Virus record (IMG/VR): IMGVR_UViG_2778261231_000014
Coordinates: 1 to 13,592 of that record
DNA length: 13,592 nt
Source: a virus
Taxonomy: Duplodnaviria > Heunggongvirae > Uroviricota > Caudoviricetes
Reading direction: 5' to 3' (one strand)
Numbering within the stretch: position 1 is the stretch's first letter; every line of letters starts with the position of its first letter. The position numbers and the translations under genes are program-made. Under the pieces are notes generated by a model. That model searched no databases and had not been told where the DNA came from. It worked only from the letters and a program-made list of their open reading frames with translations. This document shows, one piece after another, positions 292-13,592 of this stretch.

Positions 292-878
292 TGGTTGCCT
301 CCTTTGCGAAGCTGGGCGGCGATATCTTCGAGAACGCCATCAGAGAATGAGCGGTCAAAATCGCCTTCCGGCGCATTAGCCATAAACTCAGTAGAGGTAA
401 GAATCATCCTGGCAATATCCGCGGCGTTCTTTGCAGTATCATCAATAAAACCAGCTTCCCAGGCAGCCAGCATTCTGTTCGCCACAAAGTAAGCTCCCTC
501 CTTGCGTGCTTCAGTCTTCACTTCAGCCAGGAAAGCGTCGGTGGCTGGGGTTTTGTTATCTGACTCCAGCCACTGGTTGTAGTAATAATCGAACATGCCA
601 GTAGGATAACCACATCCGCTGTGCACGTGGTCTTTCATAGCAGAACCACACATGCAGTAGTCATTGTCAGTATTGCTAATGATGTCGATAAGTTGCTGTG
701 TCCGTTGCTTCAACATCGCATTCTCCGCAGCCAGCGCCGCGCATCTGGCTTTAAGCTCTGATAACGGGCCGGAAATCTTTTTGGTGGTCATGCCGATCAT
801 GGTGGCAATGCGAGCACTATTCAGGCCCGGGTTATTACGCAGGGCTGCAAGAATCTGCCCACGAATTGTTATGGTCAT
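288..878 (-). CDS. Hypothetical phage protein (196 aa) with a possible N-terminal winged-helix segment and a Cys/His cluster
   Basis: ATG at 878-876 preceded by AAGGGGG; ATGA start/stop overlap with the DnaC-like gene implies translational coupling. Contains CMCGSAMKDHVHSGC. Family not recognised with certainty. Confidence 0.6.
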   Translation of the reverse strand: MTITIRGQILAALRNNPGLNSARIATMIGMTTKKISGPLSELKARCAALAAENAMLKQRTQQLIDIISNTDNDYCMCGSAMKDHVHSGCGYPTGMFDYYYNQWLESDNKTPATDAFLAEVKTEARKEGAYFVANRMLAAWEAGFIDDTAKNAADIARMILTSTEFMANAPEGDFDRSFSDGVLEDIAAQLRKGGNQ

Positions 879-1729
879 GCTGCCCCCTTAGAACGGTAAG
901 AATCCCACGTGAATGACAGAGTGCACCCGCCGCCATCGCTCATGCGGTCAAGAACGCGCTCGCCGATGAATGCTGCCAGCTCTTCCCTTGTCTGGTTGCT
1001 GATCAGGATGGTCGGCTTCATCCGCTCGTACCGGGTGTTGATGATTTCGAACATGATCAGCTTCTCTGCTTCGCTGCCGAACTGGACGCCCACCTCATCG
1101 ATGATCAGCAGGTCCGGAGTGGTGAAGTGCGAAATCACGTCGTTCTCGCAGCGCGTCGCTGTTTTCGACCACGTTGATTTGAACTCACGGGCAATCTTCA
1201 GCGCCGTGGTGAAAATTACCGGGCTCTGGTGGTTCTCGATGACGTAGCGGGCGATCGCCAGGGCGAGGTGGTTTTTACCGGTTCCCGGCTTTCCGCACAT
1301 CACCAGCCCACCTCCCTGCTTCAGCCGCTCGGGCCACTTTGCGGCATAAGCCTGGCAAACACGCAGCGCGCGTTCTGACTCTTTGCCAACCGGCTGGTAG
1401 TTTTCCAGCGTGCACGTCACAAAGCGCTCGGGGATTTCGAGCTGGCGCAGCAGGCGGTCGATGTTCTGCTGGCGCGCGCGGTCTTCCCAGCGTTTTTTCT
1501 CTGCATACAGGAAGGTCAACTCATCGCGCAGGCAGCCCGGACAGCGAGTCGGCGGTGACGGTAGTTTTATCAGGCTGCTGGTAAGAACGCGTTTACGCTG
1601 TTCGTACTCGCCATGTTTCTCGCACAGCACTGTTTCGCAGACGGTCTCGCAGTTAGGGAGTTGCTCTGGAGGTCTACCAAGGACTTCCAGCATTTTTTCG
1701 ATAGCGTCGATTTTTTCGAGCAGTTCCAT
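875..1729 (-). CDS. DnaC-like replicative helicase loader (AAA+ ATPase, IstB/DnaC family; lambda P-position analog)
   Basis: Walker A GKPGTGKNHLALAIA and Walker B LLIIDEVG in the translation. Preferred start is ATG 1729-1727 with GAGGGA upstream, 2 nt after the O-like stop; the track ORF extends to 1747. Confidence 0.85.
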   Translation of the reverse strand: MELLEKIDAIEKMLEVLGRPPEQLPNCETVCETVLCEKHGEYEQRKRVLTSSLIKLPSPPTRCPGCLRDELTFLYAEKKRWEDRARQQNIDRLLRQLEIPERFVTCTLENYQPVGKESERALRVCQAYAAKWPERLKQGGGLVMCGKPGTGKNHLALAIARYVIENHQSPVIFTTALKIAREFKSTWSKTATRCENDVISHFTTPDLLIIDEVGVQFGSEAEKLIMFEIINTRYERMKPTILISNQTREELAAFIGERVLDRMSDGGGCTLSFTWDSYRSKGAA

Positions 1730-1731
1730 AC

Positions 1732-2601
1732 TCAGTCCCTCGCCCATGATGGGATTTCAGTCTGGCCGTAGTCTTTGCCAGCGAAGTTCTCGGATACGCG
1801 AGACTGATTGCGGGTAGGCTGCTTGGCGCCCTTAGGCTCAAACAATCCCTGCCAGCCGTTAGCGATGCTCTGGTTTATAATTTCTTCAGGCTGATATCCG
1901 CTGCACTTGCAACGCTCGAGCAGGTTGATGGCCTGGGTAACCGTCTGCTGAGACTTGATCGGTTTCTTCAGGTCGCGACGATAATCGACCCATGACTTCC
2001 AGACTGAAACTGACAGCCATTCAGGAAGGTCAACACCAGCCGGATCGAACGAAGCATGTTTGGGGGATTTAGGGGGTTTATTAATATTGTCTTTATTGTC
2101 TTTTGTAATAGTGTCTTTTGTGTGTCCCCATTTTGGTGACAGGGTTGTCACTGTTTTGGTGACACTTTTTGTCACCACCGTAGGGACACTGTCACTACCA
2201 TGGTGACAGTCACTACTATGGTGACATTTTGGCGCAGGCTTAGTGCCCGGAATTACCCACTCACTCAGGTTTTTGTTGGGCCCGATCAGCATGCCGTCGG
2301 ACACCAAAACATTCATCGCAATGAGTTCGTTTTTGGCAGCGTTAACCTTCTGGCGAGGTAGCCTGGTCAGCTCAGAAAGTTGTGAGTCTGCTATGCGGTC
2401 CATCTTCTTGTTGAACCCATAGGTTTTGCGGCAAACAGCATGAGCTACCTTGGCCTGATTTTTGGTCAGGTTCGCGCCGATAAGCTCCTCATACAACTCG
2501 TTTGCCAGACGGGTGTACCCATCGTCTGTATCGGCCACGCGTTGCTCCTGTATTCCCGAAACTACAGCGGGAAAGTTGAGAATTTCTGCGGTGTTTGACA
2601 T
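1732..2601 (-). CDS. Replication initiator protein, lambda O-like N-terminal domain
   Basis: N-terminus MSNTAEILNF...ADTDDGYTRLAN...LTKNQAKV...RKTYGFNKKMDRIADSQLSELTRLP...GPNKNLSEW closely follows the lambda O N-terminal domain as I remember it. ATG 2601-2599 with GGGAG RBS; the track ORF starts at an upstream in-frame GTG at 2628. Iterons lie inside the central linker. Confidence 0.85.
   Translation of the reverse strand: MSNTAEILNFPAVVSGIQEQRVADTDDGYTRLANELYEELIGANLTKNQAKVAHAVCRKTYGFNKKMDRIADSQLSELTRLPRQKVNAAKNELIAMNVLVSDGMLIGPNKNLSEWVIPGTKPAPKCHHSSDCHHGSDSVPTVVTKSVTKTVTTLSPKWGHTKDTITKDNKDNINKPPKSPKHASFDPAGVDLPEWLSVSVWKSWVDYRRDLKKPIKSQQTVTQAINLLERCKCSGYQPEEIINQSIANGWQGLFEPKGAKQPTRNQSRVSENFAGKDYGQTEIPSWARD
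2075..2230. repeat. ori-like element inside the O-like gene: four to five roughly 22-bp iterons plus an adjacent AT-rich tract
   Basis: Repeated units TTTTGGTGACAGGGTTGTCACTG / TTTTGGTGACACTTTTTGTCACC / ...GGGACACTGTCACTA / CCATGGTGACAGTCACTACT / ATGGTGACATTTT at 2131-2230; AT-rich tract with repeated ATTGTCTTT at about 2075-2130. Same layout as lambda ori inside O. Confidence 0.6.
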
Positions 2602-2604
2602 ACT
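2576..2604 (+). promoter_or_regulatory. Putative promoter for a short + strand (antisense) transcript: TTGAGA-17-CATACT
   Basis: -35-like TTGAGA at 2576-2581 and -10-like CATACT at 2599-2604 with 17-bp spacer. Weak match; proposed mainly because a strong + strand terminator lies about 70 nt downstream. Confidence 0.25.
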
Positions 2605-2640
2605 TACTCCCGTTACTTGCCGTAACACAGTGTGATAAGG

Positions 2641-2676
2641 GCCTTTGAAGTTACCGCTTCAAGGGCTTTTTCTTTT
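2641..2676 (+). terminator. Rho-independent terminator on the + strand, in the gap between the O-like and YdaT-like genes
   Basis: 10-bp stem GCCTTTGAAG / CTTCAAGGGC (one G-U pair), 6-nt loop, then TTTTTCTTTT. The U-tract is 3' only on the + strand, opposite to the local genes. Confidence 0.6.
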
Positions 2677-2686
2677 CTTGTGCCTC

Positions 2687-3229
2687 TCATATAACCCCCA
2701 ACATTGACGTGACCATCGTCATCAGCGGCCCTACCTGCTCCGGCATGAGGCGGAACAGCGACGCTATACCCTCGCTTACCTCTTTCAGCTTCTGATGCTC
2801 TGGAGCGCCCAGAAGCACTGCCTGCTTAGCTTCGGCACACTCTTTCATCGCGGATGCGATCAGCGACATCGTGTCGTTCTGTGGTGCAAGGCGGTTGCGA
2901 AATTCCAGTGGAAGTACCGCCATGATTGCGGGCGTCAGCTGGCGCACGTTCTCGCGGTACTGCTCAGAGTCGAAACGGTTATCCAGAAAGCGAAAAAGTT
3001 TCTGGCGCGCCCTGCTGATGTCTTCCGGGAAGCTGATGGCGGTACCGCCCTGCTCCCGGTATTCGTTGATGATCAGTGCCGAAACGACGTCCTGATTGTC
3101 CAGCGCCGAAGACCATGCCCGGACCGCATCGCGGATCTTTTCGTGGTCTGGCGCCGCCTTAGGTTGAGCGCGGTTTATCATCGCTCCCGGGTGTATTCCG
3201 GTATTGTGTTGATACGCAAGTGAATGCAT
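2687..3229 (-). CDS. YdaT-like regulatory protein (CII-position analog of Rac-type prophages)
   Basis: Sits immediately downstream of the cro-like gene. Motifs EYREQGG and LTPAIMAVLPLEFRNRL resemble Rac YdaT as I recall it. Start could be ATG 3229 or internal ATG 3181. Confidence 0.6.
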   Translation of the reverse strand: MHSLAYQHNTGIHPGAMINRAQPKAAPDHEKIRDAVRAWSSALDNQDVVSALIINEYREQGGTAISFPEDISRARQKLFRFLDNRFDSEQYRENVRQLTPAIMAVLPLEFRNRLAPQNDTMSLIASAMKECAEAKQAVLLGAPEHQKLKEVSEGIASLFRLMPEQVGPLMTMVTSMLGVI

Positions 3230-3258
3230 TGCTTTCCCTTTCGTGGTTAGGGCCGCCG

Positions 3259-3480
3259 TTAGGCGGCAAAGATACCTGGATATAGAACTTCGCGAGGAAG
3301 CCCCGTCACTTCTTCGTACTTACGCATTTTTGTTACTGGAAGGCTGCCACCTCGCTTTTTAAGCATATTGATGGCCTGTGGCGTTACGCCGACCTTTTCA
3401 GCAAGCACCTTTTGAGAGCCGCCCACTGCATTAATGGCTTTCTCAAGCGGGGTGCTTGCGTTGGATTCTTTGTTGATCAT
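3259..3480 (-). CDS. Cro/YdaS-like small HTH regulator (73 aa)
   Basis: HTH-like segment QKVLAEKVGVTPQAINMLKK; GGAG RBS 7 nt upstream of ATG 3480; divergent from the repressor gene across an operator region. Confidence 0.7.
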   Translation of the reverse strand: MINKESNASTPLEKAINAVGGSQKVLAEKVGVTPQAINMLKKRGGSLPVTKMRKYEEVTGLPREVLYPGIFAA

Positions 3481-3597
3481 GTTTTGCTCCGCTCATGTGT
3501 AATCAACACCATGTTAATTCATGATGTGGATTAAATCAACATTATGGTGATGGAAAAAATCCACATGTTGTTTACCATGCATGGAGCGGAGGGTTTT
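3481..3597. promoter_or_regulatory. Immunity operator/promoter region (OR-like) between the divergent cro-like and cI-like genes
   Basis: Four copies of AATC(A/C)ACA or its complement at 3501-3508, 3525-3532 (TGTGGATT), 3534-3541, 3558-3565. 3525-3541 forms an imperfect 17-bp palindrome TGTGGATTAAATCAACA. A leftward TTGATT-17-TAACAT promoter candidate lies on the - strand. Confidence 0.6.
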
Positions 3598-4308
3598 ATG
3601 AGTAGCATTTCTGAAAGAATTAAATTTTTACTGGCAAGGGAAGGCTTGAAGCAGCGGGATTTGGCTGAGGCTTTGTCGACTAGCCCACAGACCGTCAACA
3701 ACTGGATAAAAAGAGACGCGTTAAGTCGTGAGGCGGCGCAACAAATATCTGAAAAATTCGGTTATTCTCTTGACTGGTTATTAAATGGAGAGGGTTCTCC
3801 AAAGAAGGATCTGGAGAGCAACATCCCGCCAGAGTCTGAGTGGGGAGTTGTTGATGCATGGGATAAAGACACCCCGCTTCCTGTTGATGAGGTTGAAGTG
3901 CCATTTCTTAAGGATATTGAATTTGCGTGTGGTGATGGTCGAGTTCAGTGCGAAGACCACAATGGATTTAAGCTGAGATTCTCCAAGGCAACGCTCAGAA
4001 GAGTGGGTGCAAATAGTGATGGTTCTGGAGTGCTTTGCTTTCCCGCTTCTGGTGACAGCATGGAGCCCGTTATTCCTGACGGCGCAACGGTAGCAGTCGA
4101 TACAGGCAACAAGCGGATTATTGACGGCGAACTCTATGCTATTAACCAGGGCGATTTAAAGCGCATAAAGCAGCTTTATCGAAAGCCTGGTGGGAAGCTA
4201 TTAATACGAAGCATCAATCGCGATTATGACGATGAAGAGGCTGATGAGGCAGATGTCGAGATAATCGGTTTTGTGTTCTGGTACTCGGTATTGCGATATC
4301 GCCGATAA
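3598..4308 (+). CDS. CI-like phage repressor (N-terminal XRE-type HTH plus C-terminal S24/LexA-like peptidase)
   Basis: HTH RIKFLLAREGLKQRDLAEALSTSPQTVNNWIK; S24 signature GDSMEP and a downstream Lys (LKRIK). Start ATG 3598 with GGAGGG RBS; in-frame ATGs from 3544 exist but overlap the operators. Confidence 0.85.
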   Translation: MSSISERIKFLLAREGLKQRDLAEALSTSPQTVNNWIKRDALSREAAQQISEKFGYSLDWLLNGEGSPKKDLESNIPPESEWGVVDAWDKDTPLPVDEVEVPFLKDIEFACGDGRVQCEDHNGFKLRFSKATLRRVGANSDGSGVLCFPASGDSMEPVIPDGATVAVDTGNKRIIDGELYAINQGDLKRIKQLYRKPGGKLLIRSINRDYDDEEADEADVEIIGFVFWYSVLRYRR

Positions 4309-4314
4309 TTTTAG

Positions 4315-4425
4315 TGGCCTGAAGAGACGTTTGGGTGATAAGAGAATATCTGATAGTAGGCGTGGTTACTTTGCTCTCGGTTGTTGCGATCGTGCTTATG
4401 GTGGCCTGATGAGACGTTTGGGTGA
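4315..4425. repeat. Two copies of a 25-bp direct repeat GTGGCCTGA(A/T)GAGACGTTTGGGTGAT, 86 bp apart, between the cI-like and KilA-N genes
   Basis: Copy 1 at 4315-4339, copy 2 at 4401-4425, one mismatch. Read directly from the sequence. Confidence 0.7.
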
Positions 4426-4457
4426 TTATTTTATTTTTCACAGCAATAGGATGATTT

Positions 4458-5219
4458 ATGACACAGTTTCAACTTGCATTAATCGCCAGAGAAGTTGATG
4501 GAGAAGTCATCCATCTTCGCACCAAAGACGGTTACATCAATGCCACCGCAATGTGCAAGTCTGCTGGGAAGCTACTTGCTGACTATACACGACTAAAAAC
4601 AACGCAAGATTTTTTTGATGAATTATCCCGCGATATGGGGATTCCCATATCGGAATTAATTCAATCATTTAAAGGCGGAAGAGCAGAGAATCAAGGGACT
4701 TGGGTTCATCCAGACATCGCAATTAACTTAGCTCAGTGGCTATCTCCAAAATTTGCAGTGCAAGTATCGAGATGGGTGCGTGAGTGGATGTCAGGCGAAA
4801 GAGCGCCTGCCGAACTCCCTATCCACCTTAAGCGGTATATGACAAACCGAGGCAGGGTTCCTCATACGCACTTTTCTATGCTTAATGAACTGACGTTTAA
4901 CCTGGTTGCGCCACTTGAGCAGGCAGGATATACGCTGCCAGAAAAAATGGTCCCTGATATTTCAGAAGGTAGGGTTTTCTCGCAATGGCTTCGTGAAAAC
5001 CGGGGTGTTGAGCCGAAGACGTTCCCAACATATAACCATGAGTACCCAGATGGCCGGACATTCCCGGTACGTCTATACCCAAACGAATATCTTGCAGATT
5101 TCAAACAACACTTCAACGAAGTGTGGCTGCCTCAGTACGCTCCTAAATATTTTGCAGAACGAGACCAAAGGGCATTGACGTTGATTGAGAAAATCATGTT
5201 GCCTGACCTTGATTCCTAA
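4458..5219 (+). CDS. KilA-N domain protein (253 aa) with an unassigned C-terminal domain
   Basis: N-terminal approximately 100 aa (INATAMCKSAGKLLADYTRLKTTQDFF...VHPDIAINLAQWLSPKFAVQVSRWV) fit the KilA-N/APSES-like fold. AGGA RBS; lower GC than the flanks. Confidence 0.65.
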   Translation: MTQFQLALIAREVDGEVIHLRTKDGYINATAMCKSAGKLLADYTRLKTTQDFFDELSRDMGIPISELIQSFKGGRAENQGTWVHPDIAINLAQWLSPKFAVQVSRWVREWMSGERAPAELPIHLKRYMTNRGRVPHTHFSMLNELTFNLVAPLEQAGYTLPEKMVPDISEGRVFSQWLRENRGVEPKTFPTYNHEYPDGRTFPVRLYPNEYLADFKQHFNEVWLPQYAPKYFAERDQRALTLIEKIMLPDLDS

Positions 5220-5227
5220 ATGTTATA

Positions 5228-5250
5228 CCCGGCCACCAAGCCGGGGTTTT
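5228..5250 (+). terminator. Putative intrinsic terminator after the KilA-N gene
   Basis: Stem CCCGGC / GCCGGG, loop CACCAA, followed by GTTTT. Sits between the convergent KilA-N and 65-aa genes. Confidence 0.4.
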
Positions 5251-5446
5251 ACTGCCCTTTCCGCACTATCTCAGCTGCATCCCTGTTCACACCCTTACCT
5301 ATCACGTTTCCCGTTTCCTTCCGGTACCGTTCCAGCTTGTCGATGATGTTTTGCTGGGTCATAGGTAAATCTGCCAGTGACAACTCCATGACCGCCCGCC
5401 CCATGGCGTGAACCATCATGTTCACTCTTTCTTCATCCAAGCCCAT
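5249..5446 (-). CDS. Small hypothetical protein (65 aa), divergent from the early-left promoter
   Basis: AAGGAG RBS 8 nt upstream of ATG 5446-5444; possible extended -10 TGATATGCT on the - strand upstream. No family recognised with confidence. Confidence 0.55.
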   Translation of the reverse strand: MGLDEERVNMMVHAMGRAVMELSLADLPMTQQNIIDKLERYRKETGNVIGKGVNRDAAEIVRKGQ

Positions 5447-5501
5447 TACCCACTCCTTTTTGATGTTTTTTTCAGCATATCACTTATGCCACCAAAAAAT
5501 A

Positions 5502-5576
5502 AATCAACATAAAAATCAACAAGAAACGATTAAATCAACAAAATAAATCCACAAGGTGTTGACCTATAAATCCACA
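5502..5576. promoter_or_regulatory. Second operator-like cluster (OL-like): five direct copies of AATC(A/C)ACA
   Basis: AATCAACA at 5502, 5514, 5533; AATCCACA at 5546, 5569. Same motif family as the cI/cro intergenic region; the last copy lies between the -35 and -10 of the rightward promoter. Confidence 0.55.
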
Positions 5577-5587
5577 TGATGTTTAAT
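5559..5587 (+). promoter_or_regulatory. Putative early-left (pL-like) sigma70 promoter: TTGACC-17-TTTAAT
   Basis: TTGACC at 5559-5564, TTTAAT at 5582-5587, 17-bp spacer containing AAATCCACATGATG. Points toward the recombination-gene operon. Confidence 0.45.
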
Positions 5588-5633
5588 TATCCCATCGAAA
5601 CGAAACATCGACAGCTGAGCGAAGTTAGCCAGC

Positions 5634-5664
5634 GGCGGACAGCAAGTCGCCTGCTTTTTAACAA
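5634..5664 (+). promoter_or_regulatory. nut-like site in the leader: bulged hairpin followed by a boxA-like TGCTTTTTAACAA (alternatively a leader intrinsic terminator)
   Basis: Hairpin GGCG(G)AC-AGCAA-GTCGCC at 5634-5651, then TGCTTTTTAACAA at 5652-5664, which is one mismatch from the rrn boxA core TGCTCTTTAACAA as I recall it. Confidence 0.35.
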
Positions 5665-6003
5665 CATGCAGATTTACAGCGTCAATGACCTGTTAAGACC
5701 CCTACACGTAAACGTGCTGTATCACCGGGTGCGATCCGGTCGGTGAGAGAGTATCCCCGCGCGAGAGCGAGAACGGCGTGAGAACGGGCAACACTGGCAG
5801 GGAGTTGGCGCTGACCAATACAGGGAATGTTATGGGATGTGGTGAAGGGTTCATGGACGGGAATATGTCGCACGTAAAGCGGCGAGGCCCGAGGAGCTAT
5901 TGCCGAAGATAAGTAGGCCGAATCGGGTCGAAATGGGTCTCCCACCTACCACATCGCCAAAGCATTTCTCCCGCATCAGCGGGTAACGACAGAGGGTAAG
6001 GGG

Positions 6004-6300
6004 ATGATCGACGACATCAAGCGCATCGACTCAATGATAAATGCGCTTCGCAATATGAAACAGGACATCAAGCGTCAGCAGAAACTAAGTGAAATAAACA
6101 GTTTAGACCTGTCGCCGAAGCAAGCTCAAAAGCGCAATGCCGATGCTGACTGGATTGCGATGGAACAGATTAAGCGTCGGCATGAGCTGCACGCTCTGTC
6201 TGTTGAGCTTGGGTTCGCTGAGCGCCGGGAAAGTTATGCTCCATTTGAATTAACTGACGGGTGGCACCGATTCGACCACAAGCCGCGCGAACCTCAATAG
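6004..6300 (+). CDS. Hypothetical early protein (98 aa), first gene of the rightward early operon
   Basis: RBS AGGGTAAGGGG before ATG 6004; followed immediately by an intrinsic terminator. No family recognised. Confidence 0.55.
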   Translation: MIDDIKRIDSMINALRNMKQDIKRQQKLSEINSLDLSPKQAQKRNADADWIAMEQIKRRHELHALSVELGFAERRESYAPFELTDGWHRFDHKPREPQ

Positions 6301-6321
6301 CCGCCTAACCAGCGGCTTTTT
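6299..6321 (+). terminator. Rho-independent terminator after the first early gene
   Basis: Stem AGCCGC / GCGGCT, 7-nt loop, then TTTTT; overlaps the TAG stop at 6298-6300. Confidence 0.6.
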
Positions 6322-6456
6322 CATACCTGGAGTCATTTACGAGTGGCTCAAGTTATGACAACCGGCGGCCATCCACCGCCCATTGAAACACTGAATAAAT
6401 GCGTTGAAGTCTTGTATTAACCGTTCCGTTCGCCGCGATAAGGCCAAGAGGAAATC

Positions 6457-6663
6457 ATGGTAAACCAGCACTACGGTACACAGACAGTAAACCGCGGCGC
6501 AGTTCAGCCGGGGATGCTCGTCAAACACAAGGATTCAACCTGGACGGCATCAGCTAATGCTCGTGGTCGTTTGTATCTGCATCGCGGCGTTGAGATGACT
6601 TACACCAGGGATTTGCTGGTTGAAGTTTATCTGAACGGTCTGGGGAATGGCCTCAGCCATTAA
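6457..6663 (+). CDS. Hypothetical small protein (68 aa)
   Basis: AAGAGG RBS 5 nt upstream of ATG 6457; same orientation as the operon. The overlapping - strand ORF 6337..6528 starts with GTG and has no RBS. Confidence 0.5.
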   Translation: MVNQHYGTQTVNRGAVQPGMLVKHKDSTWTASANARGRLYLHRGVEMTYTRDLLVEVYLNGLGNGLSH

Positions 6664-6696
6664 CGGAGAGTTGCCAAAACACTTTAAGGACAGGTG

Positions 6697-6855
6697 ATGA
6701 AAAAAGAATGTGGTTATTGCCACAAGCCTGTTGAAGAAGGCGCAGAAGTAAAGAGCACCTTGCTCTATCTCAACGGTTCGCAACTGGCACAGAAAGAAAA
6801 AGAATATTGCTCTAAGCAATGCGCTGAATACGACCAGATGGCGCACGAAAGTTAA
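6697..6855 (+). CDS. Small Cys4 protein (52 aa), putative zinc-ribbon; absent from the ORF track because it is under 60 aa
   Basis: Translation MKKECGYCHKPVEEGAEVKSTLLYLNGSQLAQKEKEYCSKQCAEYDQMAHES has CxxC...CxxxC. By position it matches the small zinc-binding gene of Rac-type prophages (ydaE position). Confidence 0.45.
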   Translation: MKKECGYCHKPVEEGAEVKSTLLYLNGSQLAQKEKEYCSKQCAEYDQMAHES

Positions 6856-6940
6856 ATAGCAGTCCTGAAATATGAAATGAAAAATTCGCCATTAATTTGG
6901 CGCGGCTTCTTACACCCTTAATTTAACAACTGGAGATTTT

Positions 6941-7228
6941 ATGGAAATCGTAAAAATCGAAATGAACCTGAAAGCAGTGAATAAAGAAGTGGCTGCATTC
7001 AACTGCGAGAAGAAAGTATCAGGCGTTATTCACTCAACTACAAACGGTGAAACAACAGTCATTCTCGACGGTGGCTATGTGCTTGGCAAGTTTGATTGCC
7101 CGCACTGCGCCATTGAGGAGATCAGCTTGCTGGTACTCAAAATCAGCGATAGCGATTACGCCGGCTGGGGAACCTACCGTACATACAAGCAAGATTTTAT
7201 GAATGAGGCGATCGTAGCCGTCAGTTAA
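6941..7228 (+). CDS. Hypothetical protein (95 aa) immediately upstream of the recE-like gene (racC position)
   Basis: GGAG RBS 5 nt upstream of ATG 6941; a hairpin GCCCAC-CGAA-GTGGGC without a U-tract follows at 7235-7250. Confidence 0.55.
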   Translation: MEIVKIEMNLKAVNKEVAAFNCEKKVSGVIHSTTNGETTVILDGGYVLGKFDCPHCAIEEISLLVLKISDSDYAGWGTYRTYKQDFMNEAIVAVS

Positions 7229-7368
7229 GCGAAAGCCCACCGAAGTGGGCCCGCCATGTCCGGCCTCACCGACCAAAGTTACACCGGAAACAACATTAAA
7301 ACCAAAGTTAACCCAATGGGCGCTATCAATGGTCCGGGGATTCTAACACCCAAAAATGAGGATCTCAC

Positions 7369-10300
7369 ATGGAATTCTTTAATGTGGTTAAAGCCACTCA
7401 GAAATCCGGAAAGCAAGATGCAGTGGTCTGGTTCACTGCTAAAACCGAGGCTCGCGCCAATCTGATGCTGGATGTTGCGCTGGAAGATGCAGGTATCGAA
7501 ACAGGTCGGGGTAAGGACTACGCCAAACCGATTCGCACTGATTTCCCAGTTGTCGACGGCCTGCCGAAAGAAGGTGAAGTTGATTTTACCTGGTGTGATC
7601 GCTACGAGCTTCAGGACGATGGGCGCACCTGGCTGCCAAAAGCCGCTGGTGTGTCTACTGGTTCCGTTGACGCCCCCTACACACCTACTCCGACCGTAAT
7701 CGTTGAAGATGCGACTGCGTCCGAAATTGTCCCGGTTGAAAACCGTACTCCAGCGGTCCGCTTTGCCGTCCATCTGATGAACGATAAATACCAAACCCAC
7801 GTCACTAAAGAGCAGCAGTTGGCTGCCAGCGAAATGTCACTGGATGAAGGCAATACATATCTCCATAGCCTGCTTGTGGCAAGGAACGATGTGCCCGCGA
7901 CCGCCAAACTCAGCCTGAATGCTGAGTGGAAAATGATTCGGGCGGTTAAGGACATTTTCACACCCGACGAAGAGCACGAACCAAGATTGATCGCTGCATT
8001 CATGTCTGACTGGGTGAACACCGATGCCGGTGACCGCAATCAACTGGTAGAAGACTGGCGCAGTGGTAAGTTGCAGTTGCTCAAAACTGAAACCAGCAAC
8101 GCTGCTGACGTTACAACGGGTCAAGATCTCACTGTTGAGGACGGTATCCAGACCGACGAGAACGGCCGGGCAGAAGGTGGCGTCGTTGATGGTGAAGTCG
8201 ATACCGAAGAGCAATCCCAGCAGACACAGCAACCGAACCTGATCGTTGTTGCCACCCTGCCATTCCGCCAGCGCGTACTGGCTCAGTTCATCGGTGATGG
8301 TGAATATCTCTATCACATCGACGCAGGGCAGAAAAATGAGATTGTCCGCCTTGAGATGGACACCGATGACGCGTACGTCCAGAACCTGCTGCTGGCAGCT
8401 GAGAATGTGGAAGCATTCAAAAAAGCCATTGAGCACGATATTCATAAAGTCGTGAATGCCGTTAAGAAAGTCTTCCCTGTCGATGGAAAAATCCCTGAAC
8501 TCGCAACCTTAATCCAGTTTTTGAAATTGTGGTTCGCTACAGATCACATCGACCGCGGTATCCTCGTTCGCGAATGGGCCGCCGGTAATCGCATCAGTAG
8601 TGTGCAGCGTACTGATTCCGGCACTAATGCCGACGGCGGTTACGTCACTGACCGTGGACCTGACGCACACCACACACTGGACACTCTCGATTTAGAGATT
8701 GCGTGTGCCCTTCTGCCTATGGACTTCAACCACTTCGAGATCCCGGGCAGCATTCTTCGTCGCGCTAAAGAAATCGTGACCAAAAAAGAAGAACCATGGA
8801 AATCATGGAGCAACATCCTGCGCAATCAGCCAGGCGTTCTGGGTGTTAACCGCACGGCTATTTTTAACCTGGTACGTATCGCACCGGAAAATATTCATTT
8901 AACTCCTGTCGCTCACCTGGAATTTGTTAACCAGACCATGACAGCCGCGTTCAATTCCGCGGTCGAGTTATTGCCGTTGCATGAGGCTGAACCCGCAGCA
9001 CAGGAAATTCCCCAACCTGAAGGTAAGGAGTCTCCGCGCAAATCCTTCTGCACTCACGAAGAGAACCTGCAACGCGTGCGTGAAGAAGGAGCACGCCGCC
9101 GCGCAGAGGAAGCGGCAGCACAACCGCAGAAAGTCGAACAAGAACTGGTTAAAAATGTCGGCAACGGAATATTCGACGTTACGGCTTTGCTGCAGAACTC
9201 AGCAACTCATGGCACGAAAAAGGCTACGGAGACCACCAGCAATGTGCAGGTTCAAGAAACTGTCAGTGATGAAAAACAAGCTGGTGATGAAGTACAGCCA
9301 GGCGAAAGCAGTCTGGAGTCTGGTGAAGAGTCAGATACCAGCCAGAAGGACGATGTAAACCAGAATACGGATTCTGTCGCCAAAAATAGCGATTCTGTAA
9401 GCCAAACCGAACCAGTTGCAGCACAAACCGAGCCAGAAGCGCAATCTGACGAACCGGCTGTTGTTTATCCCGCTTATTTCGAGCCAGGCCGCTATGAAGG
9501 GCTGCCAAACGAGGTTTACCACGCCGCCAACGGCATCAGCTCAACCCAGGTGAAAGATGCGCGCGTTTCGCTGATGTACTTCAATGCGCGCCACGTAGAG
9601 AAAACCATCGTCAAAGAGCGCTCAGCGGTGCTGGACATGGGCAACTTGGTGCATGCGCTGGCGTTGCAGCCTGAACTACTGGACGCAGAATTCAGCGTTG
9701 AACCGGTGATCCCTGAAGGCGCATTCACAACGGCCGCGACCCTGCGCGCCTTTATCGATGAGCACAATGCCAGCCTGCCGGCGCTGCTGTCTGCCGACGA
9801 CATCAAGGTGTTACTGGAAGAGTACAACGCCACCCTGCCGCCGCAGGTTCCGCTTGGCGCTAACCTGGAAGAAACGGCACAGAACTATATGGCGCTGCCA
9901 GCTGACTTCCAGCGTATTGATGGTGACCAGAAGCAGACGGCGACGGCAATGAAGGCATGCATTAAAGAGTACAACGCCACCCTGCCGCCGCCGGTTAAAA
10001 CCAGCGGCAGCCGTGACGCGCTGCTGGAGCAGTTGGCAATCATCAACCCTGACCTTGTGGCTCAGGAAGCACAGAAACCGGCACCACTGAAAGTGTCCGG
10101 TACCAAAGCAGACATGATCCAGGCCGTGAAGGCAGTCAAACCAGATGCCGTATTTGCCGACGAACTGCTGGATGCCTGGCGCGATAACCCGGAAGGAAAA
10201 GTGCTGGTCACCCGCCAGCAGCTGAGCACCGCGCTGAATATTCAAAAAGCGCTTCTGGCACACCCGACCGCCGGCATGCTGCTGACCCACCCTAGCCGAG

Positions 10301-10758
10301 CCGTTGAGGTGAGCTACTTTGGTTTTGACGAGGAGACGGGCTTGGAAGTTCGTGTGCGCCCTGACCTTGAGATCGACCTGGATGGCGTGCGTATAGGTGC
10401 AGACCTGAAAACCATCAGCATGTGGAATGTTAAGCAGGAAAGCCTGCGCGCCAGGCTACACCGGGAAATTATTGAACGTGATTATCACCTGAGCGCGGCT
10501 ATGTACTGCGAAACCGCAGCGCTGGATCAGTTCTTCTGGATTTTCGTCAACAAAGACGAGAACTACCACTGGATCGCCATCATCGAGGCATCCGCTGAAC
10601 TACTGGAGCTGGGTATGCTCGAGTACCGCAAAGCGATGCGCAATATCGCAACCGGATTCGACACAGGTGAATGGCCAGCGCCAATCACTGCTGACTACAC
10701 CGACGAACTGAACGACTTCGACCTGCGCCGCCTTGAAGCGCTGCGTACTCAGGCATAA
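7369..10758 (+). CDS. recE: RecE-like exonuclease VIII (1129 aa): long N-terminal region, acidic linker, C-terminal PD-(D/E)XK nuclease domain
   Basis: Single long ORF with GAGGA RBS. C-terminal RVRPDLEIDLDGVRIGADLKT fits a PD...(D/E)xK signature; N-terminal DFPVVDGLPKEGEVDFTW resembles what I recall of RecE. Directly followed by an annealing-protein gene. Confidence 0.7.
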   Translation: MEFFNVVKATQKSGKQDAVVWFTAKTEARANLMLDVALEDAGIETGRGKDYAKPIRTDFPVVDGLPKEGEVDFTWCDRYELQDDGRTWLPKAAGVSTGSVDAPYTPTPTVIVEDATASEIVPVENRTPAVRFAVHLMNDKYQTHVTKEQQLAASEMSLDEGNTYLHSLLVARNDVPATAKLSLNAEWKMIRAVKDIFTPDEEHEPRLIAAFMSDWVNTDAGDRNQLVEDWRSGKLQLLKTETSNAADVTTGQDLTVEDGIQTDENGRAEGGVVDGEVDTEEQSQQTQQPNLIVVATLPFRQRVLAQFIGDGEYLYHIDAGQKNEIVRLEMDTDDAYVQNLLLAAENVEAFKKAIEHDIHKVVNAVKKVFPVDGKIPELATLIQFLKLWFATDHIDRGILVREWAAGNRISSVQRTDSGTNADGGYVTDRGPDAHHTLDTLDLEIACALLPMDFNHFEIPGSILRRAKEIVTKKEEPWKSWSNILRNQPGVLGVNRTAIFNLVRIAPENIHLTPVAHLEFVNQTMTAAFNSAVELLPLHEAEPAAQEIPQPEGKESPRKSFCTHEENLQRVREEGARRRAEEAAAQPQKVEQELVKNVGNGIFDVTALLQNSATHGTKKATETTSNVQVQETVSDEKQAGDEVQPGESSLESGEESDTSQKDDVNQNTDSVAKNSDSVSQTEPVAAQTEPEAQSDEPAVVYPAYFEPGRYEGLPNEVYHAANGISSTQVKDARVSLMYFNARHVEKTIVKERSAVLDMGNLVHALALQPELLDAEFSVEPVIPEGAFTTAATLRAFIDEHNASLPALLSADDIKVLLEEYNATLPPQVPLGANLEETAQNYMALPADFQRIDGDQKQTATAMKACIKEYNATLPPPVKTSGSRDALLEQLAIINPDLVAQEAQKPAPLKVSGTKADMIQAVKAVKPDAVFADELLDAWRDNPEGKVLVTRQQLSTALNIQKALLAHPTAGMLLTHPSRAVEVSYFGFDEETGLEVRVRPDLEIDLDGVRIGADLKTISMWNVKQESLRARLHREIIERDYHLSAAMYCETAALDQFFWIFVNKDENYHWIAIIEASAELLELGMLEYRKAMRNIATGFDTGEWPAPITADYTDELNDFDLRRLEALRTQA

Positions 10759-10763
10759 GGGGA

Positions 10764-11882
10764 ATGATGATGGAAAACACGAATATCGTAACCGCTGAAC
10801 AGCAGACTCCAAACACGATCTCAGCCAGCAATGCCATTTTCAACGTGCAGGCTTTAACCCAGCTTCAGTCTGTCGCCGGGTTGATGGCACAGGCAGCCGT
10901 AACGGTGCCTGAGCACCTCCGCGGCAATCCGGCAGACTGCATGGCCATCATCATGCAGGCGATGCAGTGGGGTATGAACCCTTACGCCGTGGCGCAAAAG
11001 ACGCACCTGGTTAACGGTGTCCTGGGATACGAAGCGCAACTGGTTAATGCGGTGATCTCCAGCTCAAACGCCATCGTTGGCCGCTTTCACTATGAGTACG
11101 AGGGCGACTGGTCGAAATGTGCCAGCAGCCGCGAGATAACCGTTAAAAAGCCTGCGAAAGGTGGCGGGACGTACGACAAGAAAGAAATGGTACGCGGTTG
11201 GGAAAGTGCTGATGAACAAGGACTGTCGGTACGGGTAGGTGCCGTTATTCGCGGTGAAAGTGATATCACCTGGGGAGAGCCTGTTTTCCTCTCCAGCGTA
11301 ATCACACGTAATTCTCCACTTTGGGTATCAAACCCGAAACAGCAGATCGCTTATCTGGCACTCAAATACTGGGCGCGCCTGTATTGCCCTGCAGTTGTTC
11401 TTGGTGTGTACACCCCTGATGAGATTGAACAGCGCACAGAAAAAGAGATCAACCCAACGCCGCAACGCGTTAGCCTGGCTGATATCTCAGGTGACACCGT
11501 CACAACCACGCAAAGCGCACAGGAATCGTCGGTAAATGTCGACTCTCTTGCCGATGATTTCCGCGAACGCATCGAATCTGCTCAGGACGTGGATAGCGCC
11601 AAATCGCTGCGTGCCGACATTGAAACGGCGAAAGCTACGCTGGGATCCGCACTATTCACCGAGCTGAAAAACAAAGCCGTAAAGCGTTATTACCTAGTGG
11701 ATGCACGCAACAAGGTTGAGGAGGCTATTAAATCCCTGCCCCAGCCCGACGAGCCGCATGCAGCCGAACGGTTCGCTGAAGCCGAGCGCATGCTTGCATC
11801 TTCAAAGCGTCACTTAGGCGATGAACTGCACGATCAATTCAGCATCACCCTGGCGGATATGAAACCGGAATACGTGGCCTGA
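10764..11882 (+). CDS. Single-strand annealing protein, Bet/RecT (Red-beta) superfamily
   Basis: ADCMAIIMQAMQWGMNPYAVAQKTHLV and SPLWVSNPKQQIAYLALKYWARLYCPAVVLGVYTPDE align by eye with lambda Bet. The true start may be the third ATG at 10770, which has better spacing from AAGGGG. Confidence 0.65.
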   Translation: MMMENTNIVTAEQQTPNTISASNAIFNVQALTQLQSVAGLMAQAAVTVPEHLRGNPADCMAIIMQAMQWGMNPYAVAQKTHLVNGVLGYEAQLVNAVISSSNAIVGRFHYEYEGDWSKCASSREITVKKPAKGGGTYDKKEMVRGWESADEQGLSVRVGAVIRGESDITWGEPVFLSSVITRNSPLWVSNPKQQIAYLALKYWARLYCPAVVLGVYTPDEIEQRTEKEINPTPQRVSLADISGDTVTTTQSAQESSVNVDSLADDFRERIESAQDVDSAKSLRADIETAKATLGSALFTELKNKAVKRYYLVDARNKVEEAIKSLPQPDEPHAAERFAEAERMLASSKRHLGDELHDQFSITLADMKPEYVA

Positions 11883-11920
11883 CGAGACCGGGAGGGGTAA
11901 CCCTCCCTCAAGGAGATTAT

Positions 11921-12163
11921 ATGCGACTGATCAATCGAGGAAGTAAGCAATCACCTTTAGCTCGCCAAGCATGCGACATCGCGCTGGCAGCTCACTTGCA
12001 AACATATGGCGACTATGGGCGAAGCAAGATGAAAGAGACTTATACGGTGAAGGTTGAAGGCATGAAAGTCTGGGTGGAGGTGGTGAACCGAAAGGCGAGC
12101 TACGTGGCCACAGCGATGACCGGCATGCGCCGTCTCCGCTCCCTGCCCGGGCAGGTTGGTTGA
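11921..12163 (+). CDS. Hypothetical protein (80 aa)
   Basis: AAGGAG RBS 6 nt upstream of ATG 11921; sits where Rac/lambda carry a restriction-alleviation gene, but no sequence support for that function. Confidence 0.45.
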   Translation: MRLINRGSKQSPLARQACDIALAAHLQTYGDYGRSKMKETYTVKVEGMKVWVEVVNRKASYVATAMTGMRRLRSLPGQVG

Positions 12164-12204
12164 AAAAGATTTTGAATGGCCCGAACGGGCAACTGGAGAG
12201 AGCT

Positions 12205-12402
12205 ATGGATGATATTTTGGTAACGTCAGACCTGACCAGTCGCTACAAAATTTCACGCAAAACCCTTTGGTCATGGCAAAGTGCAGACACAATGCCTCGG
12301 GGCTTCGTATGCCCGTTCCCACCCCCTGACTGGCCCGGCAACCCTAACCGCTGGCGCTCTGAGTCAATCAAAGAGTGGGAGGATAAAAAGAAGATAAATT
12401 AA
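12205..12402 (+). CDS. AlpA/Xis-like small DNA-binding protein (excisionase or integrase regulator family)
   Basis: [34 protein letters not shown]...[12 protein letters not shown] fits the AlpA/phage-excisionase HTH pattern. ATG 12205 with GGAGAG RBS; the track ORF starts at an upstream TTG at 12160. Confidence 0.55.
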
Positions 12403-13592
12403 CTGAAGGGCTCTCCGATGATCTCTTCAAGATGGCTCTGCCAAACGCGGAGCCAGTGTTTCTGATCATCGATATAGTCATGAAGGTTGTAATGCGCCAT
12501 AACCCCCACCATCTGATGCCCGAGCAGCTTTTCAATTACGTGCGGCGGGCAACCTAACTCAGAGAGATTTGTGGCTATCGTCCGCCTCATATCATGAAGC
12601 GACCACTCTGCCATACCTGTTCCATTCCAAATAGAACGGGCGTAATTGGATGCCACAGGTGAATGAACGGGCGAATCTTTGATCCCGCCATCAATTTTAC
12701 GTTGTGAAGTCACCAGGTGATTGGTGTTTATTTTCTTGAGGTGATTTCTGACCAGGTTAACGGCGGCGTCTGAGAGTCCCCTTCTAATATGTACCCGAGT
12801 TTTATAACTGCCCGCAGGCACGACCCACTCATTATCATCCAATCGAAACCATGATCTCTCACTAAGTCGAATCTCAGCCGTACGGCATCCGGTAAGCATA
12901 ATAAATTTCACCAGGAAAACGGACTCTATCGACATATGGCTTTTCAACCACTGATAGATTTTGCGCAGATCGTCATCGTCCATCCTGCGAGTTCTCTTTT
13001 TAGGCTTTTGCCCGACATCAGATGGCAGTAATCCCTCGAGTGGGTTTGAGGCGATCACACTTCTGTTAACGCAGAACCTAAACGCCCGTTTGCACAGCGA
13101 AAGCATGTAATGAGCCATCACCCTGCTTTCTATAGAATCGAAGACGTTGATCCAGTGCATTTTCGCTGTGTTATCGACTTTGACATTCTTCATCGGTTCG
13201 GCGATATGTTTCTCAAACACCTGGCGATAGTAATCGACTTTAACTAGCCCGTTAGCGATACAGTGCCTTTCAATCCAGTAATTGAACGCTTCGGCAACGG
13301 ACATCGCTTCCTGTCGGGTCTGCTTATCCAGCTTCACCTGCTCTCGCGGATCCAGTCCCTCAGTTAACCAGTTTCTGAATTGTTGGCGACGCTCTCTTGC
13401 CTGGGTGATACTCATTGCAGGATAATCACCAACATTGAGTTTTACCGCTTTACCGGCCCAGCGATACCGATAGAAAAATGATATTTTTCCGGCCTGGCTG
13501 ATTCTGGCGTTGAGCCCGTGCGAATCAGAAATAATCTCGATATCATCTCTTTTCTTGCCGAGCGCCTTCCTGAGCTTTGTGTCGGTGATCAT
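12399..13592 (-). CDS. int: Tyrosine site-specific recombinase (phage integrase, P4-like family)
   Basis: 397-aa ORF with catalytic-region motifs LTGCRTAEI (Arg), HDMRRT (His-x-x-Arg) and LLGHQ...AHYN (His/Tyr); N-terminal arm-binding-like domain. The ATG coincides with the window end. Confidence 0.9.

What the first reader, a model, noticed from the sequence alone, without database searches (positions are those of the whole stretch)
11883..11920. GC-rich hairpin with a GTAA tetraloop between the annealing-protein gene and the next ORF
GGGAGGG-GTAA-CCCTCCC at 11890-11907 is a 7-bp G-C-rich stem with a GNRA-type loop, directly after the stop codon and just before the AAGGAG RBS of the next gene. 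There is no U-tract, so it is more likely an RNA stability or processing element, or a rho-dependent site, than an intrinsic terminator.
Basis: seen in the sequence. Interest (0 to 1): 0.3.

Follow-up and report, generated by a model that had tools for sequence, protein, structure and literature searches.

The report
Conserved RNA hairpin after phage recT
The hairpin is real: it is a small RNA stem-loop kept by selection just after the recT recombinase gene in many enterobacterial prophages. It is not a transcription terminator, and it most likely marks the boundary between recT and the next gene, protecting the recE-recT message.

Summary
GGGAGGG-GTAA-CCCTCCC lies at 11890-11907, 7 nt after the recT stop (TGA 11880-11882) and 2 nt before the AAGGAG SD of a DUF4060 gene (ATG 11921). 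It has no U-tract on either strand.

A single hairpin of this kind is not beyond chance: 32% of simulated windows hold one. The evidence comes from relatives:
- 38 of 42 recT stops in species-level genomes are followed by a stable hairpin starting 4-9 nt downstream, against 5 of 201 other ORF ends.
- In window-type relatives the stem is nearly invariant (0.3 bits) while the flanks are scrambled (1.6 bits).
- Unrelated stems (CGGCCCC, GCGGGGC, GCGGCCG, GGGGAGG) occupy the same position, so all 7 pairs show compensatory changes.
- Single-base variants are mostly C-to-T in the 3' arm. That gives G.U on the + strand only, so selection acts on the sense RNA.
- The hairpin follows recT whatever gene comes next (at least 12 unrelated cargo genes).

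In about three quarters of relatives the only SD sits before the hairpin and the ATG 8 nt after it, a T4 gene 25/38-like split RBS. The window has the other form, with the SD after the hairpin.

Best reading: a recT-linked intercistronic mRNA hairpin acting as a decay barrier or punctuation mark. The function is inferred, not shown. It is a new member of a known kind, of modest interest.

The parts
10764..11882 (+). recT (RecT-family single-strand annealing protein, 372 aa), with stop TGA at 11880-11882. The hairpin travels with the 3' end of this gene.
   Evidence: ORF. Pfam RecT E = 2.5e-36. Annotated as RecT in HK225 and in E. coli genomes.
11883..11889 (+). 7-nt spacer CGAGACC between the stop codon and the stem. 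Its sequence is free but its length is held at 6-7 nt (rarely 4-9) in relatives. It carries no SD here, whereas most relatives have GGGAGG at this place.
   Evidence: 5'-flank entropy 1.6 bits in window-type relatives.
11890..11896 (+). 5' arm of the stem, GGGAGGG.
   Evidence: Covariation.
11897..11900 (+). Tetraloop GTAA (GNRA type). It is variable in relatives.
11901..11907 (+). 3' arm of the stem, CCCTCCC. In relatives, C-to-T variants at five different positions keep G.U pairing on the + strand only.
11910..11915 (+). Shine-Dalgarno AAGGAG of the downstream gene, 2 nt after the stem and 5 nt before the ATG.
   Evidence: The same layout is seen in 25 distinct relatives.
11921..12163 (+). 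Downstream DUF4060 gene (80 aa). The start at 11921 is the one served by the SD next to the hairpin.
   Evidence: Pfam DUF4060 E = 4.7e-34 covering residues 3-77. PGAP annotation in E. coli genomes.

Best explanation
The feature is a stem-loop that forms in the sense (+) RNA of the early-left operon (recE-recT-DUF4060-xis). It belongs to the 3' flank of recT. It is not a terminator: RNA polymerase reads through it into DUF4060 and xis.

Most likely it is an intercistronic punctuation hairpin. It starts 7 nt after the stop codon, which puts it just outside the mRNA channel of a ribosome terminating on recT, so it can stay folded on a translated message. After any cleavage or termination further downstream it would block 3'-to-5' exonucleases. 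The recE-recT segment would then outlast the distal DUF4060-xis segment.

Because the hairpin has to be there, the next gene's ribosome-binding site is built around it. In this window the SD comes straight after the stem. In most relatives the SD comes straight before it, with the folded stem bringing SD and ATG together.

Shown: the hairpin exists, it is selected at the RNA level on the + strand, it is linked to recT and not to the downstream gene, it lacks terminator features, and two RBS layouts exist.

Inferred: the exonuclease-barrier or differential-stability function, and the ribosome-footprint reasoning. The latter rests on established knowledge that about 11-13 nt 3' of the P site lie inside the ribosome.
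For: 1. Enrichment. In species-level genomes, 38 of 42 recT stops are followed by a hairpin of -12 kcal/mol or better starting 4-9 nt after the stop. Only 5 of 201 other ORF ends in the same loci have one.
2. Purifying selection on the stem. In 20 distinct window-type sequences the entropy is 0.3 bits for the stem, against 1.6 (5' flank), 1.28 (loop) and 1.58 (3' flank).
3. Covariation. Unrelated stems (CGGCCCC/GGGGCCG, GCGGGGC/GCCCCGC, GCGGCCG/CGGTCGC, GGGGAGG/CCTCCCC) occupy the same position. 97.5% of cells pair, all 7 pairs show double changes, and 0 of 500 shuffles reach the observed values.
4. Strand. C-to-T changes at five positions of the 3' arm (L008/L204, L212, L241, L224) give G.U on + but A.C on -. 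Only one G-to-A change is seen in the 5' arm.
5. Loops are enriched for the extra-stable RNA tetraloops GNRA and UUCG.
6. The hairpin follows recT whatever comes next. At least 12 unrelated downstream genes were seen, including DUF4060, a Dam methylase, a dATP/dGTP pyrophosphohydrolase, a PerC-like protein, DUF977 and AlpA. phi80 has the same DUF4060-xis-int module but no recT, and it lacks the hairpin.
7. The hairpin is kept in both RBS layouts. Its need is therefore not explained by SD-ATG bridging alone.
8. The distantly related Rac recT also has an 8-bp hairpin 7 nt after its stop, and Acinetobacter and Thalassotalea RecT genes have hairpins of their own after the stop.
9. There is no U-tract, and a separate terminator-like site follows xis.
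Against: No transcript data were available, so no 3' end, processing site or half-life has been measured. An exonuclease barrier does not by itself explain three things: why the stem sequence GGGAGGG is so widely retained rather than only the pairing, why the stop-to-stem distance is so constant, or why the stem always sits within a few nt of the next gene's RBS elements. Seven base pairs is at the short end for a robust barrier to RNase R or PNPase. The covariation set was assembled by picking hairpins, so intact stems are favoured. Three relatives with a mismatch (L154, L179, L242) were left out of the in-register counts.
Confidence: 0.45

Rival explanations
1. The hairpin is a structural part of the downstream gene's translation-initiation region. 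It shortens and stiffens the path from the recT stop to the next start codon. In relatives it bridges the SD and the AUG. Here it would fix the standby site or promote coupling, setting how much DUF4060 is made relative to RecT.
For: In 73 of 101 distinct relatives the only SD (GGGAGG, CGGAGG or CAGGAG) lies directly after the recT stop and before the hairpin. The ATG lies a modal 8 nt (range 7-11) after it, with no SD in between. That geometry recurs with four unrelated stems. This is the arrangement shown experimentally for T4 genes 38 and 25, where the structure reduces SD-AUG spacing from 22 to 5 nt and from 27 to 11 nt (PMC3014915). PGAP calls the ATG 8 nt after the stem as the start in L002. 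In window-type relatives the SD is always within 1-8 nt of the stem.
Against: In this window the SD (AAGGAG) is downstream, with a normal 5-nt spacing, so no bridging is needed. Yet the stem is just as conserved in this layout. Deleting the hairpin would shorten the spacer equally well, so a positive role for the fold itself is still required. Under the published standby-site rule As = 15 + P + D - H (PMC3936740), my estimate is H about 9, P = 2 and D at least 7, giving As of at least 15. That predicts only a mild effect on initiation. More distant relatives (Rac, Pectobacterium L248) keep the hairpin 25-30 nt away from the next start.
Confidence: 0.25
2. It is a sequence-specific RNA or DNA site for a phage or host protein, for example an operator for a translational repressor. 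The GGGAGGG/CCCTCCC duplex itself would be what is recognised.
For: The stem sequence, and not only the pairing, is invariant across Escherichia, Salmonella, Klebsiella, Citrobacter, Enterobacter, Kluyvera and others, while flanks and loop vary.
Against: Wholly different stems replace it at the same position in close RecT relatives (Kluyvera, Rahnella, Scandinavium). The loop, usually the recognition element, is free to vary. GGGAGGG-loop-CCCTCCC hairpins are also common in unrelated viral contigs, many as terminators. No candidate binding protein co-varies with it.
Confidence: 0.08
3. It is a DNA-level feature of a mosaic joint. The conserved roughly 40-60 bp formed by the recT 3' end and the hairpin cassette would serve as a homology linker, at which recombination swaps the cargo genes between recT and xis/int. 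The inverted repeat would then be incidental or structural in DNA.
For: Homology to phi80 starts at window 11927, six bases after the A of the ATG. The same cassette, up to the ATG, precedes at least 12 unrelated genes.
Against: The wobble variants pair only on the + strand. Extra-stable RNA tetraloops are enriched. The stem is replaced by unrelated stems with compensatory changes. All of these point to RNA folding rather than DNA sequence homology. A conserved joint can also be a consequence of a selected RNA element rather than its purpose.
Confidence: 0.08
4. It is a weak or factor-dependent transcription terminator or pause site. It would be read through by N-type antitermination and would limit DUF4060-xis expression from unmodified polymerase.
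For: A G+C-rich hairpin sits inside a lambdoid early-left operon. A few distant RecT loci have a true T-run after their hairpin (for example Pantoea L261).
Against: There is no T-run within 12 nt on either strand in the window or in about 100 relatives. In most relatives the start codon of the next gene lies 8 nt after the stem, which would make that gene untranscribable. A better terminator candidate lies after xis.
Confidence: 0.07
5. It is a chance inverted repeat or a neutral remnant with no function.
For: A perfect G-C-rich 7-bp hairpin arises somewhere in 32% of simulated windows.
Against: Enrichment after recT stops is 90% against 2.5%. The stem is conserved amid saturated flanks. All seven pairs show compensatory changes.
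Confidence: 0.02

Closest known systems
Intercistronic mRNA-stabilising stem-loops in polycistronic messages. Examples from my own knowledge: REP hairpins at malE-malF, the stable C(UUCG)G and GNRA hairpins of T4 intercistronic regions, and the processed 3' hairpins of T7 early mRNAs.
   Same: A short, very stable sense-strand hairpin between two cistrons, without a U-tract. It has extra-stable tetraloops and is conserved by pairing. Polymerase reads through it.
   Different: It is not a REP element: it does not read as the REP consensus as I recall it (not aligned here), and the window holds a single copy. It is far too short for an RNase III site. It is tied to one particular gene (recT) across many phages and placed at a fixed 6-7 nt from its stop. 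Its stabilising activity has not been measured.
Split (hairpin-bridged) ribosome-binding sites of T4 genes 38 and 25 (Nivinskas et al. 1999; Malys and Nivinskas 2009; reviewed in PMC3014915).
   Same: In about three quarters of relatives the layout is SD, then a stable hairpin, then 7-11 nt, then the ATG. The linear SD-ATG distance of about 28 nt collapses to about 8 nt when the stem folds. The stem shows phylogenetic covariation.
   Different: The window itself does not have this layout: its SD lies after the hairpin with normal spacing. No reporter or probing data exist for any of these recT cassettes.
Intrinsic (Rho-independent) terminators.
   Same: A G+C-rich stem with a tetraloop immediately after a stop codon.
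   Different: There is no U-tract, the hairpin is internal to the operon, and the next RBS starts 2 nt after the stem.
boxB hairpins of lambdoid nut sites.
   Same: A small hairpin with a GNRA-like loop in a lambdoid early-left transcript.
   Different: The stem is 7 bp with a 4-nt loop, not 5 bp with a pentaloop. The loop is not conserved, I saw no boxA in the 7-nt spacer, and the hairpin lies distal to recE and recT rather than next to the promoter.

Membership tests
Intrinsic (Rho-independent) terminator | G+C-rich stem-loop | tested here: met
   7 bp with 6 G-C pairs, dG -16 kcal/mol.
Intrinsic (Rho-independent) terminator | Run of U (at least about 5 of 8) directly after the stem | tested here: not met
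   The sequence after the stem is TCAAGGAGATTA on + and GGTCTCGTCAGG on -. The terminator scan does not list the site. About 100 relatives lack a T-run as well.
Intrinsic (Rho-independent) terminator | Lies at the end of a transcription unit | tested here: not met
   Co-directional DUF4060 and xis follow. A terminator-like hairpin with a partial T-run lies after xis at 12433-12455, and the matching site in phi80 is annotated as a putative leftward terminator.
Intercistronic mRNA-stabilising or decay-barrier hairpin | Stable stem-loop on the sense strand between cistrons of one operon | tested here: met
   Strand is assigned from the G.U variants.
Intercistronic mRNA-stabilising or decay-barrier hairpin | Pairing maintained by selection (covariation, conserved stem against free flanks) | tested here: met
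Intercistronic mRNA-stabilising or decay-barrier hairpin | RNA 3' ends at the foot of the stem, and a longer half-life for the upstream segment than for the downstream segment | not testable with these tools
   It needs Term-seq or 3' RACE and rifampicin chase experiments. No transcript data were found.
Split (hairpin-bridged) RBS, T4 gene 38/25 type | SD upstream of the hairpin, with a linear SD-AUG spacing too long to work unfolded | tested here: not met
   Window: the 7 nt before the stem are CGAGACC (no SD), and AAGGAG lies after the stem, 5 nt from the ATG. The feature is met in 73 of 101 distinct relatives.
Split (hairpin-bridged) RBS, T4 gene 38/25 type | Destabilising the stem lowers translation and compensatory changes restore it | not testable with these tools
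   It needs reporter fusions or toeprinting.
boxB / nut antitermination site | Conserved loop recognised by N, with an adjacent boxA, in a promoter-proximal position | tested here: not met
   The loop varies freely among relatives. Reading the 7 nt before the stem shows no boxA-like sequence. The site lies after recE and recT.
RNase III processing site | About 20 bp or more of double-stranded RNA | tested here: not met
   The stem is 7-8 bp, and no longer helix forms in context.
Rho utilisation (rut) site | C-rich, G-poor, unstructured stretch of RNA | tested here: not met
   C/G is 0.83 in the spacer and 1.04-1.08 in the next 100 nt, and the region is structured.
Any curated Rfam family | Match to a covariance model | tested here: not met
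   No hit at or near 11883-11920, even at E up to 5.

The most novel reading that the evidence does not exclude
The hairpin may be the core of a portable translation-initiation cassette welded to the end of recT. In about three quarters of enterobacterial relatives the only SD of the next gene lies immediately after the recT stop. The hairpin must then fold to bring that SD within about 8 nt of the ATG, a split RBS so far documented mainly for T4 genes 38 and 25. The same cassette serves as the docking point for at least a dozen unrelated cargo genes, including a Dam methylase, a dNTP pyrophosphohydrolase, regulators and DUF4060. The window would carry a derived form in which the SD has moved behind the hairpin. 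One relative (L226) has SD-like sequences on both sides, as an intermediate would.
Probability: 0.4. Interest if true: 0.5.

Novelty: new member of a known kind. Interest (0 to 1): 0.33.

Why it matters
RecET-type modules are the basis of recombineering and are widespread in prophages, yet how expression is balanced along these operons is poorly described. A hairpin fixed to the end of recT across many genera is a simple, testable handle on that balance. It could act through mRNA stability of recE-recT relative to the distal genes, or through translation of the next gene.

The relatives also offer a large natural series of about 100 sequence variants, with two RBS layouts and several unrelated stems. 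These could be used to test how a folded stem between SD and AUG, or directly in front of an SD, affects initiation. They could also show how cargo genes are plugged into a conserved intergenic cassette.

For annotation, the hairpin should not be labelled a terminator. The upstream SD also explains apparently SD-less starts of the genes that follow recT in relatives.

Tried and rejected
1. Scanning viral contigs for GGGAGGG-N3-8-CCCTCCC. The pattern is generic: more than 120 loci, most of them unrelated phages, and many with T-runs. Only 8 loci were linked to recT. It was useful only to show that the stem sequence is not specific.
2. MAFFT alignment with flanks (A2). It put the divergent stems out of register by aligning their SD with the GGGAGGG arm. 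I therefore counted pairs in register by script and on an alignment of the hairpins alone (A3). The Rac row is misaligned in A3 and accounts for most of the unpaired cells.
3. Rfam at a permissive threshold. Nothing was found at the site.
4. Literature search for transcript or sRNA data at Gifsy or Rac recT. It was unproductive, because 'recT' matches many unrelated words.
5. HK225 and E. coli ECCRA-119 annotations as a map of the whole window. Both agree with the window only from recE onwards, and the left part is mosaic.
6. Readings considered and rejected: stop-codon readthrough or frameshift stimulator (the stop codon varies between TAA, TGA and TAG, and readthrough would add only 6 residues); boxB/nut; RNase III site; rut site; a terminator for a minus-strand transcript (no T-run, and the wobble variants do not pair on that strand).

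Full report
**Context.** The right part of the window is the early-left recombination and integration region of a lambdoid phage. Window 11500-12400 is 99.8% identical to coliphages HK225 and mEp237 and to prophages in many E. coli genomes. The genes are:
- a RecE-like exonuclease at 7369-10758 (+);
- recT at 10764-11882 (+);
- a DUF4060 gene at 11921-12163 (+);
- xis at 12205-12402 (+);
- a phi80-type integrase on the opposite strand at 12399-13592.

**Observation.**
- stop TGA at 11880-11882;
- spacer CGAGACC;
- GGGAGGG (11890-11896), GTAA, CCCTCCC (11901-11907);
- TC, then AAGGAG (11910-11915), ATTAT, and the ATG at 11921.

The 38-nt spacer folds into this hairpin with dG -16.0 kcal/mol. 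It is the most stable compact hairpin on the + strand of the window. There is no T-run after it on either strand.

Taken alone it is not statistically remarkable. A perfect, G-C-rich hairpin of at least 7 bp appears somewhere in 32% of simulated windows, even though this exact sequence never appears in shuffles.

**Relatives.** I collected recT loci from three sources: annotated phages and E. coli genomes, 80 viral contigs and 80 species-level genomes. I then read the sequence after each recT stop. About 100 distinct post-stop sequences carry a stable hairpin beginning 4-9 nt (mostly 6-7) after the stop.

Four results show that it is a selected feature of the sense RNA.

1. Enrichment. 38 of 42 recT stops in the genome set are followed by a hairpin of -12 kcal/mol or better starting 4-9 nt downstream. 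Only 5 of 201 other mechanical ORF ends in the same loci have one.
2. Conservation pattern. In the 20 distinct sequences that share the window's layout, column entropy is 0.3 bits in the stem. It is 1.6 bits in the 5' flank, 1.28 in the loop and 1.58 in the 3' flank.
3. Covariation. Unrelated stems sit at the same position:
   - CGGCCCC/GGGGCCG in Kluyvera;
   - GCGGGGC/GCCCCGC in Rahnella and a Pseudomonas lundensis contig;
   - GCGGCCG/CGGTCGC in Scandinavium;
   - GGGGAGG/CCTCCCC in Pectobacterium.

   On an alignment of the hairpins alone, 97.5% of cells pair, all seven pairs show changes on both sides, and no shuffle out of 500 reaches the observed values. The caveat is that the set was assembled by picking hairpins. 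Three relatives with one mismatch (L154, L179, L242) are outside the in-register count.
4. Strand. Single-base variants are C-to-T changes at five different positions of the 3' arm (CTCTCCC, CCCTTCC, CCCTCTC, CCCTCCT). These keep G.U pairing in the + strand RNA but would be A.C mismatches in the opposite strand. Loops are enriched for GNRA and UUCG tetraloops.

**The hairpin belongs to recT, not to the gene that follows.**
- In E. coli 2020S05-013-9 the hairpin follows recT, but the next gene is a different ORF. DUF4060 comes two genes later, without a hairpin.
- Across the collection at least a dozen unrelated genes follow the cassette. They include DUF4060, a D12 Dam methylase, a dATP/dGTP pyrophosphohydrolase, a PerC-like HTH protein, DUF977, AlpA and several unknowns.
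- phi80 shares the DUF4060-xis-int module but has no recT, and it lacks the hairpin. Its homology to the window starts at 11927, just after the ATG.
- The distantly related Rac recT of E. coli K-12 has its own 8-bp hairpin, again 7 nt after the stop.
- Acinetobacter and Thalassotalea RecT genes carry other hairpins after their stops.

**Two RBS layouts.**
- Layout (i), 73 distinct sequences: stop, GGGAGG, C[GGGAGGG-NNNN-CCCTCCC]G, GTAACGAN, ATG. An SD sits directly after the stop and before the stem. There is no SD between stem and ATG, and the ATG lies a modal 8 nt (range 7-11) after the stem.
  - The same geometry recurs with the unrelated stems. One example is taa-CGGAGG-TCGGCCCC-GTAT-GGGGCCGG-ATACCAGC-ATG.
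  - It is the arrangement established for T4 genes 38 and 25, where a structure between SD and AUG reduces the spacing from 22 to 5 nt and from 27 to 11 nt (PMC3014915).
- Layout (ii), 25 distinct sequences, including the window, Gifsy-1/-2, SPN3UB, PHB10 and a Klebsiella phage. The 7 nt before the stem are free and hold no SD. A canonical SD follows the stem within 1-8 nt.
- One relative (L226) has SD-like sequences on both sides.

**Interpretation.** The stem is as strongly conserved in layout (ii), where no bridging is needed, as in layout (i). The hairpin also persists in distant relatives where the next start is 25-30 nt away. The fold must therefore have a role that does not depend on the position of the SD and that is tied to the end of recT.

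The best-established role for such a hairpin (sense strand, no U-tract, internal to an operon) is a barrier to 3'-to-5' exonucleolytic decay, which lets the upstream segment outlive the downstream one. The fixed 6-7 nt distance from the stop places the first paired base just outside the mRNA channel of a ribosome sitting on the stop codon. The hairpin could therefore remain folded on a translated message. This last point is an inference from general knowledge of ribosome footprints. The RBS of the next gene is then built around the obligatory hairpin, either behind it (the window) or in front of it with bridging (most relatives). I put this at 0.45.

The main rival, at 0.25, is that the hairpin is primarily part of the downstream translation-initiation region. 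By the published standby-site rule (PMC3936740) the window's hairpin leaves ample single-stranded surface. My estimate is As of at least 15, so a strong effect on initiation is not predicted.

Other rivals are less likely for the reasons given in their entries. They are a sequence-specific protein site, a DNA-level recombination linker at a mosaic joint, a weak terminator or pause, and chance.

**What it is not.**
- It is not an intrinsic terminator. There is no U-tract, it is internal to the operon, and a better candidate lies after xis.
- It is not boxB/nut, because the loop is not conserved and the position is wrong.
- It is not an RNase III site, because 7 bp is too short.
- It is not a rut site, because C/G is about 1 and the region is structured.
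- It matches no Rfam family.

**Verdict.** The claims that this is not a terminator and that it is an RNA-level element hold. The stability role is plausible but untested, and the rho idea is unsupported. The link to recT and to the RBS architecture in relatives was missed.

The hairpin is a new member of a known kind, the intercistronic stable hairpin, and the window itself is of modest interest. The more interesting by-product is the widespread cassette of SD, hairpin and ATG after recT in relatives. It would be a new, large family of split ribosome-binding sites if confirmed experimentally.

Noticed in passing
window 7230-7327 (- strand): Rfam isrB (RF01386, an Hfq-binding sRNA first described in Salmonella) matches over the full model at 38.2 bits (gathering score 35, E = 5.8e-4). 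It lies just upstream of the recE start and antisense to the recET operon. A stable hairpin at 7229-7254 (-) looks like its 3' stem.
   Followed up: no
window 12433-12455 (+ strand): A terminator-like hairpin TGGCTCTGC-CAAAC-GCGGAGCCA followed by GTGTTTCTG lies about 30 nt after the xis stop, inside the 3' end of the convergent int gene. The corresponding site in phi80 is annotated as a putative leftward transcription terminator. This is the likelier end of the recE-recT-DUF4060-xis transcript.
   Followed up: partly
relatives: L002 884-920, L149-L256 (about 73 distinct sequences): Most recT relatives carry stop-GGGAGG-C[GGGAGGG-NNNN-CCCTCCC]G-GTAACGAN-ATG. The only SD lies before the hairpin and the ATG 8 nt after it, which resembles the T4 gene 25/38 split RBS. 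Four unrelated stems show the same geometry. The upstream GGGAGG could alternatively pair with the 3' arm, which would sequester the SD.
   Followed up: partly
relatives: region between recT and xis/int in L131-L259: The slot directly after the recT hairpin is a hot spot for variable cargo. It holds at least 12 unrelated genes, including a D12 Dam methylase, a dATP/dGTP pyrophosphohydrolase, a PerC-like HTH protein, DUF977, AlpA, DUF4060 and several ORFs with no Pfam match.
   Followed up: partly
L130 2451-2484 (E. coli K-12 Rac prophage, - strand of the record): The distantly related Rac recT is also followed, 7 nt after its TAA, by an 8-bp hairpin TGGCGGTG-TAATG-CACCGCCA. It lies about 25 nt upstream of ralR and has no adjacent T-run.
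   Followed up: no
window 11921-12163 versus the HK225 record (L001 2030-2164): The HK225 GenBank/RefSeq record annotates the DUF4060 gene as a 44-aa CDS. The 80-aa ORF starting at 11921 has the AAGGAG SD, and the Pfam DUF4060 match covers its residues 3-77. The deposited start therefore looks too far downstream.
   Followed up: partly
window 9985-10010 (- strand; weaker on the + strand at 9987-10012): The most stable compact hairpin of the whole window lies inside the recE coding region, on the antisense strand: CTGCCGCTGG-TTTTAA-CCGGCGGCGG, dG -19.6 kcal/mol. Its significance is unknown.
   Followed up: no
window 1-7300: The left part of the window is not collinear with HK225 or with the E. 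coli ECCRA-119 prophage, although both match from recE onwards. The immunity and replication region is a different mosaic module.
   Followed up: no
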